The notes under the pieces: model-generated | The model's database searches: none | Seen by the model: only the letters and a program-made list of their open reading frames with translations | Told to the model about the DNA's origin: nothing | Part shown: positions 4,624 to 45,921 of the stretch, one piece after another | How the letters are laid out: the number at the start of each line of letters is the position of its first letter | Position numbering within the stretch: position 1 is the stretch's first letter | Sequence record: MT129654.1 | Reading direction: 5' to 3' (one strand) | DNA: 64,000 nt | DNA from: Escherichia phage MN04 | Made by a program: the position numbers and the translations under genes

Positions 4624-6183
4624 TTAGATACCTTTAACATATACGCGACGGAAGTAACCATTCAGACCGAGGCTGTTAACGATGTCAGGCATACCATTCT
4701 GAATACGTTTGGTAGGTGCCTGAGCAGCTGGGTCAGCGAACGGGTTAATACCGATACCGTAACGAGTTTTGAAGCCCATTACCGGTTGGAAGTTCTTCGG
4801 ATCGGAACCACGCAGCGGAGTCAGCGCAACGTACGGAGCATAGTAGATACCTGCGTCCATTTCGTTGGAACCTTTATAACCGATGGTGAAGTAATCGGAA
4901 CGAGCATACTGGTCGATGTAAACACGATATTTACCACCAAGAACACCGGCAAATACTGCTTTGGTTGTGTCAACGTTGAAACCCTGACCCAGACCTTGAG
5001 CTGCATAACTTACAGAAGTATCAACTGCAGCCAGTACGTTAACTACGTTACGGGAAGCGATGATGAAGTTACCAGCACCACGACCGGTCTGACGAGCGAT
5101 TTCGGCTGCTTCTTTATCAATCTGGAACAGAAGGGCTTTAAAGCTCTCACCGGCCCAACGAGCACCACGGATATCAATCGGGTCCTGGAAGTCAAACACA
5201 CCAGCTTTAGCGCCAACGGTGTTGGTCATACCAGATTTACCAACCTGTGCAGAGTAGTTAATCCAATCGATAACTTCACGGTTGATTTCGAGCATAATTT
5301 CGGTAGCAAGGATACCGGACAGTTCAGCATCTGCATCCATACCGTGTACTGCACGAAGGTCCTGTGCCAGTTCGATAGAGTAGCTTGCTTTCAGCTGACG
5401 AGATTTAGCTTCGATAACTTGTTTGTCGATGCGGAAGCCCATTTCGTTCCACGGGTTATCGGTAGAACCGTTGAAACCTTCCTGAAGTTCGGCGATAGAA
5501 GTAGCCATACCTTCAGCGATTTCAGCCAGCTGACCAGCTTCAACCAGAGCGGTAACAGCAGCATCCAGTTTAGCGGCATCAGTAGCGCCTGCATCAACGG
5601 TTACAGCTTCAACAGCCTGGAAGTGTGCAGAACCGGTAGCTTCGAAGAAGTGAGAATAAATTTTACCAACTTCCAGAACTTTGCTTGCAGCCAGTGCTTC
5701 GAAAGTTTCAGCAGCACCCTGACCAGAGAACATAGCGTTCGGAGCATACATCGGATGGAAAGCTTCTTTAGCGCCTGCAGCGATAGGGTCTTTACCATAT
5801 ACTGCACGCAGTGCAAATACCTGACCGGTAGGGTTATTCAGAGGCTGAACACCACAAATATCAAAAGCAATCAGATGAGGAATAGCACGACGAACCATAC
5901 CCATTACTGCCGGCCCAATCTGAGTTACAGCACCAGAAGTCTGGCCAGCTGCGATATTGGTAGCATCATAACCGTGGTCACCACCAATTTCAGCTTCGGT
6001 CAGGAAAGAACCAAATGCTTCAGAGATTTTTTCATCACGGTATTCCGGGGCAGTCAGGATGTCTTGTTCCTGGTTTTCGAAAATTTTAGCGATGATAGCT
6101 TGTTTAGAAGCACCAACGATTTCAGGAAGAGCTTCGTTTTCCAGCAGAGCGGACCATTTTTGAACTAATGCATTCTTTTTCAT
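4624..6183 (-). CDS. gp23: Major capsid protein gp23
   Basis: 519 aa; N-terminal propeptide and body closely match T4 gp23. Confidence 0.95.
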   Translation of the reverse strand: MKKNALVQKWSALLENEALPEIVGASKQAIIAKIFENQEQDILTAPEYRDEKISEAFGSFLTEAEIGGDHGYDATNIAAGQTSGAVTQIGPAVMGMVRRAIPHLIAFDICGVQPLNNPTGQVFALRAVYGKDPIAAGAKEAFHPMYAPNAMFSGQGAAETFEALAASKVLEVGKIYSHFFEATGSAHFQAVEAVTVDAGATDAAKLDAAVTALVEAGQLAEIAEGMATSIAELQEGFNGSTDNPWNEMGFRIDKQVIEAKSRQLKASYSIELAQDLRAVHGMDADAELSGILATEIMLEINREVIDWINYSAQVGKSGMTNTVGAKAGVFDFQDPIDIRGARWAGESFKALLFQIDKEAAEIARQTGRGAGNFIIASRNVVNVLAAVDTSVSYAAQGLGQGFNVDTTKAVFAGVLGGKYRVYIDQYARSDYFTIGYKGSNEMDAGIYYAPYVALTPLRGSDPKNFQPVMGFKTRYGIGINPFADPAAQAPTKRIQNGMPDIVNSLGLNGYFRRVYVKGI

Positions 6184-39935: not shown

Positions 39936-40490
39936 ATGAAACTTTTAAAATATTTGAGTTGGATTCTGTTGGTCCCACTAGATTTTATCTCTATGGTTCT
40001 AGCCGTTATCCTTGCGCCTTTTGTGGTTCCTTTCCACAATAAAAAGACTGGTAAATTGCCGTACGGTTTTGATTGGATGATGACATACGATAATCCAATT
40101 GACGGTGACAAAGGTCATATTAAACGTTGGGCTAAAATCAGGAAAATGCCTGGCGGTGTTTATCTCCAGAGGGTAGCTTGGCTATGGCGAAATAAAGCTT
40201 ATAACTTTGCTTACCATAAACTCGGTCGCGATTGTAGCTCAGAATTCCATTATCGTGGTAATCCTGATGTGGAATCAGGTTCTCCTGATAAAGCTCACCA
40301 TGGTTGGTTGTGGATGTGGAATGATGACGCCTGGGGTGTATTTGCTTCAGTTCCTTATCTTAAGGTCGGTGGAATCACATTTTACCTTCGCGTGTACTGT
40401 GGCTGGAAGCTTAAGAGTCTTTTGTCTCGTAAAATCCCTAAAGCTATGTTAGCCTTCCACGTGAACCCGTTCCGGTTCTACAAGAACTGA
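39936..40490 (+). CDS. Membrane-anchored hypothetical protein (late-promoter driven)
   Basis: 184 aa; N-terminal TM helix (LSWILLVPLDFISMVLAVILAPFVVPF); Trp-rich; AGGAA RBS. Confidence 0.55.
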   Translation: MKLLKYLSWILLVPLDFISMVLAVILAPFVVPFHNKKTGKLPYGFDWMMTYDNPIDGDKGHIKRWAKIRKMPGGVYLQRVAWLWRNKAYNFAYHKLGRDCSSEFHYRGNPDVESGSPDKAHHGWLWMWNDDAWGVFASVPYLKVGGITFYLRVYCGWKLKSLLSRKIPKAMLAFHVNPFRFYKN

Positions 40491-41300: not shown

Positions 41301-41564
41301 ATGGATAATTATGGTGAATTGTTTAATTTCTTTATGAAATGCGTTCCTGAAGAATTTGGTGCTACTGTTAACGATATTAAGGTTATCGGTCCTGAACACC
41401 CAGTGTATGAAACCTATGCAGTAATGGGTAACGAAGATGGACAGTGGTATACAATTAAAGTTGTGATTAATATGTTCTCAGCTGAAGGCTACGCCAAAAC
41501 GTCTACCAAAGTTTACCATGATAACGATTTTGATGCAGAAGATTATTTCAATAATATGAAATAA
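41301..41564 (+). CDS. Hypothetical protein
   Basis: ATG 41301 with GGAG RBS (track 41286 is GTG extension); 87 aa. Confidence 0.5.
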   Translation: MDNYGELFNFFMKCVPEEFGATVNDIKVIGPEHPVYETYAVMGNEDGQWYTIKVVINMFSAEGYAKTSTKVYHDNDFDAEDYFNNMK

Positions 41565-41566
41565 TT

Positions 41567-41596
41567 GTTTACATGGGCCCATGATTGAGATATTAT
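41567..41596 (+). promoter_or_regulatory. Early promoter candidate (GTTTACA ... TATTAT)
   Basis: GTTTACA, 18-bp spacer, TATTAT; GGGCCC-containing inverted repeat spans -10. Confidence 0.45.
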
Positions 41597-41621
41597 GAGC
41601 CCATAATTTGAGGAGAGCATA

Positions 41622-42020
41622 ATGAATATCGAAGATAAAGAAATGCAAGAGTTATATAATTCATTAACACCTGAACAACAAAAAGCTGCCAAAGAATTAG
41701 AGAAAGCTCTTGCTTTCAACTTGGCAAAAACCGATTGGGCCGCCATGTATGAAGAAAAAAGGAGATCGGAAATTGAAGCTGCCGAGAGAAATGAATGGAT
41801 TGTAGAAACCAAGATTTCTGATGGTGGTTGCTCTGTTGAGGTGTCAGCTGTGGTTAAAGGTAGTCATGGCGAAAAATCACTAGGTTGGCATAATGAGGCA
41901 AACAAATATATTGTTCTCTCAACGTCAAAAACTTATGGTCAAAAGGTTCCTGTATCCAAAGCTATTATTAAGCAAGCTCAATGGGAAGCCAATGAAATCT
42001 GCCTCACCAAAATGAAATAA
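41622..42020 (+). CDS. Hypothetical protein
   Basis: 132 aa; GAGGAG RBS. Confidence 0.5.
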
Positions 42021-42023
42021 AAT

Positions 42024-42053
42024 GTTTACAACCCTCAGAGGACGGGGTATAAT
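42024..42053 (+). promoter_or_regulatory. Early promoter (GTTTACA, 18 bp, TATAAT)
   Basis: Consensus hexamers; lies inside the N-terminal extension of track ORF 42022. Confidence 0.6.
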
Positions 42054-42096
42054 GTCCTCATGGATTACAAAATACCAACCGACTGAAGGAAATACT

Positions 42097-42690
42097 ATGA
42101 ATACTTTAAAGAAAATTGTTGAGTTCATCCGTTCTAAACTGGGTACCGCAATGACTCAGAACCTGTCAATCGAAGACCAGTATACTAAAGCTGCTTCTAC
42201 CCTGATTGATAAAATTACTGAACTCCAGACTGCTCATGTTAAGTCTGTGAATGAAGAAAAACGCATTCGTGCATTGGCAAATGAAAAAGACCAACTGGCT
42301 GCTTCTAAAGAACGTGAAATTCGTAAACTGATTGCCGAAGGCGCCGATGTTCAGGTACATGCTAAACTCGGCCTCCTTTATCGTCGTACAGCCACTCAAC
42401 TTCGTAAGAAAGCTGACGATTATATCGAAATGCGTAATGAAATTAAACTGAAGGTCAAGGAACTTGATGACTCTCGCCAGGAACTGGCTGTTAAGCTCGA
42501 GTACATCCGTGAAACTCGTAATATGGCTGCCCTTGGTATTGCTACTGCCGATGATGTGGTTGAAATCGCTGCACTGACTAAGATTGATATTGAAGACACT
42601 CTGATGCGTGTAGAAACGTTTAAAGGCCCACAAGTTGGAATGGATACGACTTCAGCTGATATCGAAGACTACATTAATTCACTTAAGTAA
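42097..42690 (+). CDS. Coiled-coil protein (possible PspA/IM30-like), hypothetical
   Basis: ATG 42097 with GAAGGA RBS, downstream of promoter; 197 aa, heptad-rich, charged. Confidence 0.5.
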
Positions 42691-42697
42691 TGTTACC

Positions 42698-42720
42698 CGG
42701 AGACTTCGGTCTCCCTATTT
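42698..42720 (+). terminator. Rho-independent terminator (GGAGAC-TTCG-GTCTCC)
   Basis: Stem-loop then TATTT, immediately after stop at 42690. Confidence 0.5.
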
Positions 42721-42738
42721 GGAGGAGAGGAGAATATT

Positions 42739-43284
42739 ATGAGTTTATATGATGACCTGATATCAAATGTTGGCTGGTTTAAAAATAGTGGTCTTTCCCA
42801 TGAAACTAATTCGGTTCTTTATAGAATTCGCCAAGACCTAGGTTATTCTAATGATTTCTTAAGTCGAACAAGTAGCAGCCGTGGATATACTACCAAATTA
42901 CCCTTTATCTTTGCTTTAGCTGAAGACCTTTCTTTTGCAGAAGCTTTAGAAATTATTGACGTAAATCTGGGTATTCAACGGGTGGAATTCGCTGGACTAC
43001 GTTATTCAGTATACTCTTTAAATGAACCAAGCGATTATAAACAGCTTGTTGATGCTGATGATGATTATCACTTGGTATGCTATTTGATGTTAGAAAACGG
43101 TGACCACTTTGGTATGGTCGACCGCCGTCCGAGTTATTCGGATATAAAAAACTATGATAAAGATGAGCTTATTATTTTAGCCAACGAATACACATCAGAG
43201 AGTCGTAAACAGCAACGTAAACTTAATCGTTTTATTAAAGAATGCCGTGAATACGCTAAAGAGGTTCAAAATGGAGCGGCCTAG
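42739..43284 (+). CDS. Hypothetical protein
   Basis: 181 aa; GGAGGAGAGG RBS. Confidence 0.5.
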   Translation: MSLYDDLISNVGWFKNSGLSHETNSVLYRIRQDLGYSNDFLSRTSSSRGYTTKLPFIFALAEDLSFAEALEIIDVNLGIQRVEFAGLRYSVYSLNEPSDYKQLVDADDDYHLVCYLMLENGDHFGMVDRRPSYSDIKNYDKDELIILANEYTSESRKQQRKLNRFIKECREYAKEVQNGAA

Positions 43285-43624
43285 TCTTGCATCACATGTT
43301 TATCAATTGGCTGAATATAATATTGGTGACAATTTATTATTAGGGATTGCCACCGGTATGCTTGGTGGTTTGGTTGGTCTGGTAATGACCACGGTTATGG
43401 CTGCAATCGAAGGAGTCATGCCCGTTGAGATGGGTTTCTATATGATAATCGCTCCGGCTGTCGTGGCTTATTTTATCCCTCTCGTGTATGATATTTGCCA
43501 TACAAATGCTTTGAATGCTCCCATCCGTAAGAGATATGCTTTAGAGATGGCTAATTATAATGAGTATGTAAAACAAACCAAACGTAATGACCTTGAAACC
43601 TTTATTAAGGAATGTAAATCATGA
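43271..43624 (+). CDS. Small membrane protein (hypothetical)
   Basis: ATG 43271; two or three TM helices (LLLGIATGMLGGLVGLVMTTVMAAI...). Confidence 0.45.
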   Translation: MERPSLASHVYQLAEYNIGDNLLLGIATGMLGGLVGLVMTTVMAAIEGVMPVEMGFYMIIAPAVVAYFIPLVYDICHTNALNAPIRKRYALEMANYNEYVKQTKRNDLETFIKECKS

Positions 43625-43911
43625 ATAAAATTGAAATTGAAATCCCTGAATACAACGACGAGAAATCTGCAGAAAAAGCTATCTATGCTCTTCTGAATAA
43701 AGTAGATACCATCGAACATGAATGTGAAGCTATTGCCGATAAGTACGGTATTCAATTCGGAACAGGTGATTATGGCTCAGGACGTACATACTACCCCGTT
43801 GGTTATGAATGCTCACAGTGGTTTAAAGATGAAATTGAAAACAATGGTGGTGAAGTTGAAAATGGCGTCGTTACAGTTGGTGCCTGGGTCTCCTCTTCAG
43901 CATTATGCTAA
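43621..43911 (+). CDS. Member 1 of tandem small-protein family with W-V-S-S-S-x-x-C C-terminus
   Basis: 96 aa ending ...GAWVSSSALC; ATGA overlap with upstream gene. Confidence 0.55.
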   Translation: MNKIEIEIPEYNDEKSAEKAIYALLNKVDTIEHECEAIADKYGIQFGTGDYGSGRTYYPVGYECSQWFKDEIENNGGEVENGVVTVGAWVSSSALC

Positions 43912-43920
43912 GGAAACGCT

Positions 43921-44202
43921 ATGATGAATGATAATCATAACCACCCAGAGCTTCTGGCCGCAGTAAAAGAAATTCATGAAGCTATTCGTCGTGCCGAGGA
44001 AATTGCAGACAAATATGAGTCCCATTTTAATATATACCCTGCTCGCGGTATGGGCGGCGACTATTATTCTCCTGGTGCCTTGAAAGCTGACCTTGCCCAT
44101 TGGGAAGAAGATGGTCATCCTGAATGGGCTATTGTTAATACTCATGACTATACAACTGACCTGGAAAATGGTGGTTGGGTGTCCTCTTCTTCTGAATGTT
44201 AA
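43921..44202 (+). CDS. Member 2 of tandem small-protein family
   Basis: 93 aa ending ...ENGGWVSSSSEC; shares EAIADKY/EEIADKY with member 1. Confidence 0.55.
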   Translation: MMNDNHNHPELLAAVKEIHEAIRRAEEIADKYESHFNIYPARGMGGDYYSPGALKADLAHWEEDGHPEWAIVNTHDYTTDLENGGWVSSSSEC

Positions 44203-44211
44203 GGAAATATT

Positions 44212-44409
44212 ATGTCTCGTGAATTAGATTGTGCAATCCGAACTGCCGCCGCAGCTATTGAAAACGTTATCCAGATTTGTAAAGAAGAACGCGAAGAAGC
44301 TGATATCTATATCGATGGTGTTCGTGACTTAGAACGACATATCACGCTTTATAATGGTTGTATTACTATTAGTGGTACCTCTTGGGTATCATCCTCTTAC
44401 GAATGCTAA
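44212..44409 (+). CDS. Member 3 of tandem small-protein family
   Basis: 65 aa ending ...SGTSWVSSSYEC. Confidence 0.55.
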   Translation: MSRELDCAIRTAAAAIENVIQICKEEREEADIYIDGVRDLERHITLYNGCITISGTSWVSSSYEC

Positions 44410-44418
44410 GGTAATAAA

Positions 44419-44631
44419 ATGACTATTGATGAAATCGAAAAACAAATCCGTGAATTAGTACGTAAAGGCCAGTCCGTGGCTGACGAAACAGGTGAAGAGT
44501 TCCATGTTTCCGGACGTGGACAATACATTTCTCCAAAGAATCCGGAATATGATGATTACGAATGGGTCCGTGACGATTACGGTATCCCAGATGGTGAAGG
44601 TTTCTGGTTTACATCCTCTATGTCTTGCTAA
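44419..44631 (+). CDS. Member 4 of tandem small-protein family
   Basis: 70 aa ending ...GEGFWFTSSMSC. Confidence 0.55.
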   Translation: MTIDEIEKQIRELVRKGQSVADETGEEFHVSGRGQYISPKNPEYDDYEWVRDDYGIPDGEGFWFTSSMSC

Positions 44632-44642
44632 GGAATAAAAAA

Positions 44643-44867
44643 ATGACCGATATTGATGAATTAGAAAAAGCTGCCCTTGAACTGGCTGCCCTGTATAAGA
44701 AAGTAAAAGATATGGCTTCTGCTCAGGATTTTGGTGTTGAGCTAGATGATTATGACGGTGAAGTTCGTCTTGAAGATTGGCTGAATAGTTCTTGTTATGG
44801 TGAAGAAGCTGGTCGTACCTTCGTTGCTCGTCCCGATGGTAAAATCTGGTACCCGAGCTCATGCTAA
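44643..44867 (+). CDS. Member 5 of tandem small-protein family
   Basis: 74 aa from ATG 44643, ending ...GKIWYPSSC; TAAGGA stop-RBS junction as in other members. Confidence 0.5.
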   Translation: MTDIDELEKAALELAALYKKVKDMASAQDFGVELDDYDGEVRLEDWLNSSCYGEEAGRTFVARPDGKIWYPSSC

Positions 44868-45732: not shown

Positions 45733-45753
45733 GTTTACTCTGAGGAAAATATT

Positions 45754-45921
45754 ATGTATAATGTTCTTATTGTTTTTGTTACTCACCCACAAGGTGGCGT
45801 AAGGCAGAATACTTCCCAAGTGGTCCAATTTTCTTCGGTAGAGGCTGCTAATCTAGCCGCAACGCGTATTGAAGCAAAAAAATCTGAACTGGGTAAATAT
45901 GAAGTAACTCGTCTTTATTAA
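45754..45921 (+). CDS. Hypothetical 55 aa protein (below ORF-track cutoff)
   Basis: GAGGAAAATATT-ATG RBS arrangement identical to the next gene; open to TAA 45919-21. Confidence 0.35.
   Translation: MYNVLIVFVTHPQGGVRQNTSQVVQFSSVEAANLAATRIEAKKSELGKYEVTRLY

What the first reader, a model, noticed from the sequence alone, without database searches (positions are those of the whole stretch)
42097..42690. Coiled-coil protein with PspA/IM30-like composition
197-aa, almost entirely helical, charged heptad-rich protein expressed from a consensus early promoter (GTTTACA, 18 bp, TATAAT). Length and composition are reminiscent of PspA/Vipp1/ESCRT-III membrane-remodelling proteins, but this is speculative without alignment.
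Basis: inference. Interest (0 to 1): 0.35.

Follow-up and report, generated by a model that had tools for sequence, protein, structure and literature searches.

The report
Phage T4 e.6: a PspA-like protein

Summary
The ORF at 42097-42690 is real. It encodes a 197-aa protein, about 82% helical and 34% charged. The window is a JS98-like Dhakavirus and the gene is the ortholog of T4 e.6 (73.6% identity). About 1,100-1,200 T4-like phage genomes carry it, and the T4 protein is detected by proteomics.

Single-sequence searches (Pfam, PDB) find nothing. Profile-level evidence agrees on PspA/IM30:
- Two diverged family members from T4-like contigs pass Pfam's PF04012 threshold.
- A diverse family profile puts Vipp1 top among PDB sequences (E 8e-5, residues 1-146 to 1-147).
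- hhalign against PspA+Vipp1 gives 89-92% probability over about 170 colinear columns; reversed and shuffled controls give 2.6% or less.
- AlphaFold models (pLDDT 82) show the PspA layout, and Foldseek's top 8-9 PDB hits are all Vipp1.

It is not new: Groover et al. 2021 reported a 99.9% HHpred match of an e.6 homolog to PspA.

The likely function is inferred only: binding and stabilising the host inner membrane during infection. Databases still call the protein hypothetical or "host specificity protein".

The parts
42024..42053 (+). T4-type early (sigma-70) promoter: -35 GTTTACA at 42024-42030, 17-bp spacer, -10 TATAAT at 42048-42053
   Evidence: 11/12 consensus match; 2 such sites in 64 kb against 0.1 expected. 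GTTTACAA is conserved in JS98 and T4. The same elements are annotated before msp3 (= e.6) in T4 record L13089. T4 e.6 RNA is classed as early.
42085..42090 (+). Shine-Dalgarno sequence GAAGGA, 6 nt before the ATG
   Evidence: Read directly from the sequence. The block AAGGAAATACTATG is invariant between the window, JS98 and T4.
42097..42690 (+). CDS of 197 aa plus stop: ortholog of T4 e.6 (msp3), a diverged PspA/IM30-family protein
   Evidence: 99.5% identical to JS98 e.6 and 73.6% to T4 e.6. PHROG 1203, E 3.9e-84. PspA homology.
42103..42162 (+). Helix alpha0 (residues 3-22): N-terminal cationic amphipathic helix, the presumed membrane anchor
   Evidence: AF2 helix 3-22 with low pLDDT, so probably flexible. 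Hydrophobic moment 0.46, against PspA 0.42 and Vipp1 0.57. The hydrophobic face is L4, I7, V8, I11, L15, A18, M19; K5, K6, R12, K14 give net +3. F10 is invariant; K5, I11, K14 are >=90% conserved. It aligns to PspA/Vipp1 residues 1-22.
42169..42531 (+). Long antiparallel helical hairpin (residues 25-80 and 86-145), equivalent to PspA alpha1 / alpha2+3, the polymerisation core
   Evidence: AF2 pLDDT 88-98. It superposes on the Vipp1 hairpin 6zvs_A at rmsd 3.0 A over 122 columns, TM 0.70 normalised to the target. It aligns colinearly to PF04012 positions 2-143 in family members. The conserved turn motif [10 protein letters not shown] aligns to PspA LARAALIEKQK.
42547..42612 (+). Short helices at residues 151-172, including the conserved LMRVETF motif; equivalent to the start of PspA alpha4
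   Evidence: hhalign pairs ADDV...DTLMRVETF with PspA SRDV...DEAMARFESF. T174 and F175 are invariant in the close family. pLDDT is only 53-71.
42652..42684 (+). C-terminal helix (residues 186-196, [14 protein letters not shown]), a candidate for PspA alpha5
   Evidence: AF2 helix with pLDDT about 89. Global hhalign pairs it with PspA KADDAISEQLAQLK (201-214), but on its own the match is weak, P 0.009.
42699..42714 (+). Stem-loop GGAGAC-UUCG-GUCUCC, 8 nt after the stop codon: a terminator or RNA-stabilising hairpin with a weak U-tract
   Evidence: MFE -9.8 kcal/mol, not better than shuffled sequence (z = 0.02). Support comes from conservation: T4 has GGGGC-UUCG-GCCCC at the same place, with compensatory stem changes and an invariant loop. 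It is annotated as a stem_loop in T4 L13089 and listed as a terminator after e.6 in phage UFV13 (PMC5931544).

Best explanation
The gene is the Dhakavirus ortholog of T4 e.6. It encodes a strongly diverged, phage-specific member of the PspA/IM30(Vipp1) family, which belongs to the ESCRT-III superfamily.

Shown here: homology at profile level; the predicted PspA architecture (alpha0 amphipathic helix, alpha1/alpha2+3 hairpin, short alpha4, C-terminal alpha5); and an early promoter with its own hairpin, so it is probably made as a separate early transcript.

Inferred: soon after infection the soluble protein binds the anionic inner membrane through its cationic amphipathic alpha0. It then polymerises through the hairpin, as PspA and Vipp1 do, and limits proton leak or repairs lesions. 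The proton-motive force would then survive DNA injection, the insertion of many phage membrane proteins, holin accumulation and lysis inhibition.

A phage copy makes sense because T4-type phages shut off host transcription, so the host's sigma-54/PspF-dependent psp operon cannot be induced. That step rests on established knowledge of T4 and the Psp system and was not tested here.
For: Identity: JS98-like phage; e.6 ortholog; T4 e.6 lies between e.7 and e.5.

Homology to PspA/IM30:
(1) Family members P0070 and P0069 belong to the e.6 family at E 4e-19 and 3e-21 over their full length. They sit in T4-like contigs beside uvsX, the gp41 helicase and ligase. They score 39.0 and 35.1 bits on PF04012 (cut-off 33.9), residues 6-146 to profile positions 2-143.
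(2) The 44-sequence family profile ranks Vipp1/PspA as 8 of its top 9 hits among 177,635 PDB sequences. The best is E 8.3e-5, residues 1-146 to 1-147.
(3) hhalign against a PspA+Vipp1 alignment gives probability 89-92% and E about 1e-6 over 169-170 colinear columns. Reversed template gives 2.6%, reversed query 1.6%, and column shuffles 0.1% or less.
(4) AF2 models have pLDDT 72 and 82, with the hairpin above 90. Foldseek's top 9 and top 8 PDB hits are all Vipp1, followed by the archaeal ESCRT-III protein CdvB2.
(5) Published HHpred: 99.9% to PspA 4WHE_A for e.6 homolog Metamorpho gp163 (PMC7862958).

Membrane-binding inference: alpha0 has hydrophobic moment 0.46 and net charge +3, and is conserved.

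Expression: promoter; T4 e.6 has early RNA and the protein is detected.

Selection: about 1,110-1,182 phage genomes carry it.
Against: - The window protein alone gives no PF04012 hit and no PDB sequence hit. The close-homolog profile A1 also fails, so the link depends on including diverged members.
- Foldseek E-values are modest (1.5e-3 to 5e-3), full-length TM-scores are only 0.25-0.5, and helical hairpins are a common fold.
- Identity to PspA is 11-16%.
- The C-terminal third is shortened by about 21 residues relative to PspA and is modelled with low confidence.
- No functional data exist. Membrane binding, oligomerisation and any effect on proton-motive force are all inferred.
- No host-like partners (PspB/C/F) are encoded nearby.
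Confidence: 0.6

Rival explanations
1. PspA mimic that antagonises or hijacks the host. e.6 would co-assemble with host PspA, or bind PspF or PspB/C through the conserved hairpin. This would silence or redirect the host envelope-stress response, or block a membrane-acting abortive-infection defence, rather than protect the membrane itself.
For: The homology evidence is the same as for the main explanation. E. coli PspA is known to be both an effector and a PspF inhibitor (established knowledge). The protein is made early. Strong divergence from host PspA, 11-16% identity, fits a changed partner set.
Against: Host transcription is shut off by T4-type phages, so inhibiting PspF would gain little. 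The conserved cationic amphipathic alpha0 argues for direct membrane binding. The family has no PADLOC hit and no known anti-defence assignment.
Confidence: 0.15
2. Membrane remodelling for a phage-specific purpose. An ESCRT-III-like polymer would shape or organise the inner membrane, for example at sites of prohead assembly or replication, or to control the timing of holin triggering and lysis inhibition. General damage control would not be its role.
For: The fold and family are those of membrane-remodelling polymers. In every T4-like locus examined, the gene sits next to small predicted membrane proteins: window 43247-43624, related to T4 e.3 at E 1e-8; T4 e.2, e.3 and e.4; and the downstream genes in L003 and L005.
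Against: Small membrane proteins are common throughout T4 early regions, so this neighbourhood is weak evidence. The immediate downstream gene is not conserved between clades. Nothing here links e.6 to assembly or lysis genes.
Confidence: 0.15
3. A generic coiled-coil protein with no PspA ancestry; the matches would reflect only shared composition and helical periodicity.
For: The single sequence and the close-homolog profile give only weak hits to unrelated coiled coils: APG6_N, KCNQ1 and LptE. HMMER reports high composition bias on the Vipp1 hits (16.6 bits). Foldseek E-values never fall below 1e-3.
Against: Reversed and column-shuffled controls keep composition (the reversed ones also periodicity), yet they drop hhalign probability from about 90% to 2.6% or less. 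Among all PDB sequences and structures, which include thousands of coiled coils, Vipp1/PspA rank first in both sequence and fold searches. All alignments are colinear and anchored at residue 1. Two family members pass Pfam's curated threshold. A published HHpred gives 99.9%.
Confidence: 0.05

Closest known systems
E. coli PspA (phage shock protein A; PDB 4WHE; Pfam PF04012)
   Same: Similar size (197 against 222 aa). Both have an N-terminal amphipathic helix, a long alpha1/alpha2+3 hairpin, an alpha4 start motif (LMRVETF against MARFESF) and a C-terminal helix ending in ...LK. hhalign gives 89-92% probability over about 170 colinear columns. 4whe appears in the Foldseek list with TM 0.55 normalised to the target.
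   Different: Only 11% identity. About 21 residues are missing between alpha4 and alpha5, and the last 8 residues are absent. alpha0 is more cationic, net +3. The gene is phage-encoded, driven by a sigma-70 early promoter rather than sigma-54/PspF, and has no pspBCDE neighbours.
Cyanobacterial Vipp1/IM30 (Synechocystis sll0617, Nostoc Vipp1; PDB 7O3W, 6ZVR, 8QBR and others)
   Same: Best PDB match by both sequence profile (E 8.3e-5, residues 1-146 to 1-147) and fold (top 8-9 Foldseek hits; hairpin rmsd 3.0 A over 122 columns). Both have a cationic amphipathic alpha0.
   Different: e.6 lacks Vipp1's C-terminal extension (alpha6). Identity is 13-16%. The setting is a lytic infection of a non-photosynthetic host. 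Ring or rod formation is untested.
T4 e.6 (msp3, NP_049742, UniProt P39224) and Klebsiella phage Metamorpho gp163
   Same: Direct orthologs. T4 e.6 is 73.6% identical, has the same length and the same promoter, ribosome-binding site and hairpin layout. Groover et al. 2021 state that gp163 is an e.6 homolog with a 99.9% HHpred match to PspA.
   Different: None in kind. This is the JS98-type allele, 99.5% identical to JS98 e.6.
ESCRT-III proper (archaeal CdvB2, eukaryotic Snf7/CHMP)
   Same: The helical-hairpin core. CdvB2 filaments are the next Foldseek hits after Vipp1, and a Megaviridae Snf7 protein appears in the viral library list.
   Different: Only weak fold-level similarity (E 0.06-0.2, TM 0.24-0.35) and no sequence signal. 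e.6 has the N-terminal alpha0 typical of the PspA/Vipp1 branch.

Membership tests
PspA/IM30 (Pfam PF04012) | Statistically supported sequence homology to the family | tested here: met
   The window protein alone has no PF04012 hit at E<=10. At family level, P0070 (39.0 bits, E 8.9e-10) and P0069 (35.1 bits) exceed the 33.9-bit cut-off, and P0071 reaches 22.3 bits. All three are full-length e.6-family members. The family profile against PDB gives Vipp1 at E 8.3e-5. hhalign gives 89-92% with clean controls. Published HHpred gives 99.9%.
PspA/IM30 (Pfam PF04012) | Long antiparallel alpha1/alpha2+3 helical hairpin as the core fold | tested here: met
   This rests on predicted structures only. AF2 gives helices 25-80 and 86-145 at pLDDT 88-98. 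Foldseek's top hits are all Vipp1, and the hairpin superposes at rmsd 3.0 A over 122 columns on 6zvs_A.
PspA/IM30 (Pfam PF04012) | N-terminal amphipathic helix alpha0 that mediates membrane binding | tested here: met
   The helix at residues 3-22 has hydrophobic moment 0.46 (PspA 0.42, Vipp1 0.57), a contiguous hydrophobic face and net charge +3. F10, K5, I11 and K14 are conserved. Actual membrane binding was not tested.
PspA/IM30 (Pfam PF04012) | C-terminal helices alpha4 and alpha5 that lock subunits into the polymer | tested here: inconclusive
   The alpha4 start motif aligns (LMRVETF to MARFESF), and the C-terminal helix aligns in global mode. That region alone gives P 0.009, about 21 residues are missing, and pLDDT is 53-71 in residues 151-180.
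PspA/IM30 (Pfam PF04012) | Homo-oligomerisation into rings or rods, and stabilisation or remodelling of membranes | not testable with these tools
   This needs purified protein (EM, liposome assays) or multimer modelling. Only monomer prediction was available.
Proteobacterial Psp system (PspF-PspABC) | Operon context with pspB/pspC and control by sigma-54/PspF | tested here: not met
   The gene sits in a phage early region behind a sigma-70-type promoter. The neighbours have no Psp domains; compare the E. coli locus. e.6 is therefore not part of a Psp system, although it is a PspA-family protein. Vipp1 and LiaH also lack this context.
ESCRT-III superfamily | ESCRT-III core fold shared with CdvB/Snf7 | tested here: inconclusive
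   CdvB2 filaments rank directly after Vipp1, but only at E 0.06-0.2 and TM 0.24-0.35. Membership follows only through the published PspA/Vipp1-ESCRT-III link, as in the title of PDB entry 6ZVR.
T4 e.6 family (PHROG 1203) | Full-length similarity to T4 e.6 and a syntenic position between the tRNA/e.8 genes and the e.5-e.1/e region | tested here: met
   PHROG 1203 at E 3.9e-84 over residues 1-197. 73.6% identity to T4 e.6. An e.8 homolog lies upstream and an e.3 homolog downstream.

The most novel reading that the evidence does not exclude
T4-type phages carry their own ESCRT-III-superfamily membrane polymer as an active infection tool, not just a spare copy of host PspA. It could hold the proton-motive force against membrane-depolarising abortive-infection systems, or set the timing of holin triggering and lysis inhibition. 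Alternatively it could poison the host PspA network. Any of these would make e.6 the first functionally defined viral PspA and would give the name 'phage shock protein' a literal meaning.
Probability: 0.25. Interest if true: 0.7.

Novelty: already known. Interest (0 to 1): 0.4.

Why it matters
T4 is the reference lytic phage, yet about half of its genes still lack a function. e.6 is one of them, and it is kept in more than 1,100 sequenced relatives.

Recognising e.6 as a PspA/Vipp1-type protein turns a 'hypothetical protein' into a concrete, cheap set of experiments on how a virulent phage manages the energised inner membrane while host stress responses are shut off.

It also corrects database labels. 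Pfam and PHROG give no function, and GenBank and UniRef carry an unsupported 'host specificity protein' name.

The homology itself is not a discovery, because it was published as a remark in 2021. The open question is the function.

Tried and rejected
- Single-sequence Pfam, PDB and NCBIfam searches of the window protein gave only weak hits to unrelated coiled coils.
- The close-homolog alignment A1 (down to 46% identity) also failed: no PspA in the PDB profile search; hhalign against single PspA gave 0.7% and against the PspA alignment 3.9%. The signal appears only once members at 17-40% identity are added (alignment A2).
- HMMER over 1.84 billion representative proteins found only 46 clusters, all about 200 aa and phage-type, and no cellular PspA.
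- phmmer of P0070 against PDB found nothing.
- I tried twice to build a diverse PspA alignment. The search for homologous proteins returned only sequences at least 86% identical to the query. The search for related loci in genomes returned only Enterobacterales at 78-100%. The hhalign template is therefore shallow (Neff about 2), and the probability is probably an underestimate.
- I looked for a conserved partner gene. The immediate downstream ORF (42739-43284) is not similar to the downstream genes of the diverged clade and matches T4 e.5 only over 15 residues.
- PADLOC gave no meaningful hit.
- The 'host specificity protein' annotation has no support from any search and is rejected.
- Literature searches for functional work on e.6 or phage PspA-like proteins found two relevant items: the Metamorpho remark and a passing mention of pspA-like genes in jumbo gut phages.
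- The hairpin's folding energy is not better than shuffled sequence, so its support rests on conservation only.

Full report
**1. What is there**

The window is a JS98-like T4-type phage of genus Dhakavirus. The region 41500-43500 is 93.8% identical to JS98 and 95.9% to Esco_phi_B-01, and the capsid gene is 100% identical in protein to JS98 gp23.

The ORF at 42097-42690 (+) encodes 197 aa. It is 99.5% identical to the protein annotated 'e.6 conserved hypothetical protein' in JS98 and 73.6% identical to T4 e.6. T4 e.6 (NP_049742) was first deposited as msp3 in L13089. It matches PHROG 1203, 'unknown function', end to end at E 3.9e-84.

A longer in-frame ORF starts at 42022, but it overlaps the promoter. 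All homologs begin at the 42097 methionine, behind an invariant AAGGAAATACTATG.

**2. Expression signals**

This is an 11/12 consensus match. Only 2 GTTTAC-N15-19-TATAAT sites occur in 64 kb, against 0.1 expected by chance.

T4 has GTTTACA-17-TATTAT at the same place, annotated as -35/-10 in L13089.

Eight nucleotides after the stop codon lies GGAGAC-UUCG-GUCUCC (42699-42714). Its folding energy is unremarkable on its own. T4 carries GGGGC-UUCG-GCCCC at the same position, with compensatory stem changes. That hairpin is annotated as a stem-loop in T4 and listed as a terminator after e.6 in phage UFV13 (PMC5931544).

In T4, e.6 RNA is classed as early, and the protein is detected and classed as 'middle' (supplements of PMC9697503). 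The gene is thus real, expressed, and probably a separate early transcription unit.

**3. Composition and fold**

The protein is 34% charged with net charge -1. Two AlphaFold2 models were made: pLDDT 71.8 with 36 sequences and 82.0 with 44 more diverse sequences. Both give the same layout:
- helix 3-22 (low confidence);
- a long hairpin, 25-80 and 86-145 (pLDDT 88-98);
- short helices at 151-160 and 166-170;
- a linker;
- helix 186-196.

This confirms the observation 'almost entirely helical, charged'.

**4. Is it PspA-like?**

Direct searches say no. There is no PF04012 hit at E<=10 and no PDB hit. A profile of close homologs fails as well.

The family is narrow. It forms 46 clusters at 50% identity among 1.84 billion representative proteins. 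All are about 200 aa, and none is cellular. That search did supply diverged members at 17-40% identity.

With those members, four independent lines converge.

(a) Scanning 44 members against Pfam, 5 hit PF04012. P0070 scores 39.0 bits (E 8.9e-10) and P0069 scores 35.1 bits, both above the 33.9-bit gathering cut-off. They align residues 6-146 to profile positions 2-143. Both proteins belong to the e.6 family over their full length (E 4e-19 and 3e-21). Both lie in T4-like contigs beside uvsX, the gp41 helicase, dsbA and DNA ligase.

(b) The 44-sequence profile, searched against all 177,635 distinct PDB sequences, ranks Synechocystis Vipp1 first (E 8.3e-5, residues 1-146 to 1-147). Eight of the top nine hits are Vipp1/PspA.

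(c) hhalign against a PspA+Vipp1 alignment gives 89-92% probability and E about 1e-6 over 169-170 colinear columns starting at residue 1. Against Vipp1 alone it gives 86%. The controls give 2.6% (reversed template), 1.6% (reversed query) and 0.1% or less (five column shuffles).

(d) Foldseek of either model against the PDB returns only Vipp1 entries in the top 9 and top 8. The archaeal ESCRT-III protein CdvB2 follows, and E. coli PspA 4WHE is also listed. The hairpin superposes on 6zvs_A at rmsd 3.0 A over 122 columns.

Motif-level correspondences fit:
- a cationic amphipathic alpha0 (hydrophobic moment 0.46; PspA 0.42, Vipp1 0.57);
- the turn motif [10 protein letters not shown] against LARAALIEKQK;
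- LMRVETF against MARFESF;
- in global mode, the C-terminal [14 protein letters not shown] against KADDAISEQLAQLK, which is weak on its own.

Relative to PspA, about 21 residues between alpha4 and alpha5 are missing.

**5. Prior knowledge**

Groover et al. [quoted passage not shown] The homology is therefore already in the literature, and my results reproduce it independently for this allele.

I found no paper testing any function of e.6. Other large phages are reported or annotated to carry pspA-like genes. Examples are the jumbo gut phages and Acinetobacter phage ME3, annotated 'PspA/IM30 family protein'.

**6. Distribution**

tblastn finds the family in 1,110 phage records with the window protein as query and in 1,182 records with P0069 as query. 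Hosts are mainly Escherichia, Klebsiella, Shigella, Salmonella, Aeromonas, Enterobacter, Yersinia, Citrobacter and Serratia.

By comparison, gp23 homologs occur in 2,473 records, 1,422 of them at 60% identity or more. The gene is thus near-universal in T4-likes of enterobacteria and Aeromonas. It is not detected by this means in Synechococcus phages, which account for 379 of the gp23 hits.

Foldseek against viral models also finds e.6-like proteins at 22-29% identity in Citrobacter phage CfP1, Serratia phage Muldoon, Erwinia phage phiEa2809 and Klebsiella phage UPM 2146.

**7. How it most likely works**

Shown: the protein is a PspA/IM30-family member with a conserved, positively charged amphipathic N-terminal helix and the polymerisation hairpin, and it is made early.

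Inferred from what PspA and Vipp1 do: it binds the inner membrane and forms a protective or remodelling polymer that limits proton leak. Because T4-type phages shut off host transcription, the host psp operon cannot respond. A phage-borne effector under a sigma-70 early promoter would fill that gap during injection damage, the loading of membrane proteins, holin build-up and lysis inhibition.

I put about 0.9 on the homology and about 0.45-0.5 on this specific mechanism. The rivals are:
- a mimic that interferes with host PspA/PspF/PspBC (0.15);
- a phage-specific remodelling role (0.15);
- mere coiled-coil convergence (0.05; argued against by the controls).

Small predicted membrane proteins follow e.6 in every locus examined. 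Such genes are common in T4 early regions, and the immediate neighbour is not conserved, so I give this little weight.

**8. Verdict**

It is not novel as a homology claim. It is under-annotated and functionally unexplored, so interest is moderate.

Noticed in passing
window 43621-44867 (+): Five consecutive small ORFs (96, 93, 65, 70, 80 aa) all end in a shared C-terminal motif W-x-(S/T)-S-S-x-x-C...AWVSSSALC...GWVSSSSEC...SWVSSSYEC...FWFTSSMSC, and the shorter ...IWYPSSC. This looks like a tandem paralog array. JS98 annotates these genes as similar to RB69 ORF139c, ORF137c and ORF136c. They have no Pfam hit.
   Followed up: no
window 43247-43624 (+); T4 e.2, e.3, e.4; L003 7391-7951; L005 8661-9254: e.6 is followed within one or two genes by small predicted membrane proteins in all four T4-like loci examined. 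The window's 125-aa ORF is a distant homolog of T4 e.3 (E 1e-8). This could hint at membrane partners, but it may only reflect how common such genes are in T4 early regions.
   Followed up: partly
GenBank and UniRef annotations of e.6 homologs: Many records name this protein 'host specificity protein', and one viral-library entry (Klebsiella phage UPM 2146) names it 'tail completion protein'. No search here supports either name; they look like propagated mis-annotations. P0001 (212 aa), and the 222-aa reading frame that starts at window 42022, are over-extended start calls.
   Followed up: partly
BFVD hits A0A0A0YS32 (Erwinia phage phiEa2809) and A0A5Q2F7S5 (Klebsiella phage UPM 2146): Proteins with an e.6-like fold (22-24% identity, E 8e-6 to 3e-5) occur in large myophages that may not be T4-type. 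The family may therefore extend beyond Straboviridae. The same list holds an annotated 'PspA/IM30 family protein' in Acinetobacter phage ME3 and an 'Snf7 family protein' in a Megaviridae sample.
   Followed up: no
window 45733-45762 (+): This is the only other exact GTTTAC-N(15-19)-TATAAT early-promoter match in the 64-kb window.
   Followed up: no
window 39936-40490 (+): A 184-aa ORF matches Pfam DUF7338 over its full length (E 4.6e-63). Its hydrophobic N-terminus suggests a membrane protein of unknown function, three genes upstream of e.6.
   Followed up: no
window 42699-42714 and T4 (L006 about 4797-4810, minus strand): The UUCG-tetraloop hairpin after e.6 keeps its loop and changes its stem by compensatory substitutions between Dhakavirus and T4, although its energy is no better than shuffled sequence. 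The U-tract is weak (CUAUUU), so it may stabilise the RNA 3' end rather than act as a strong terminator.
   Followed up: partly
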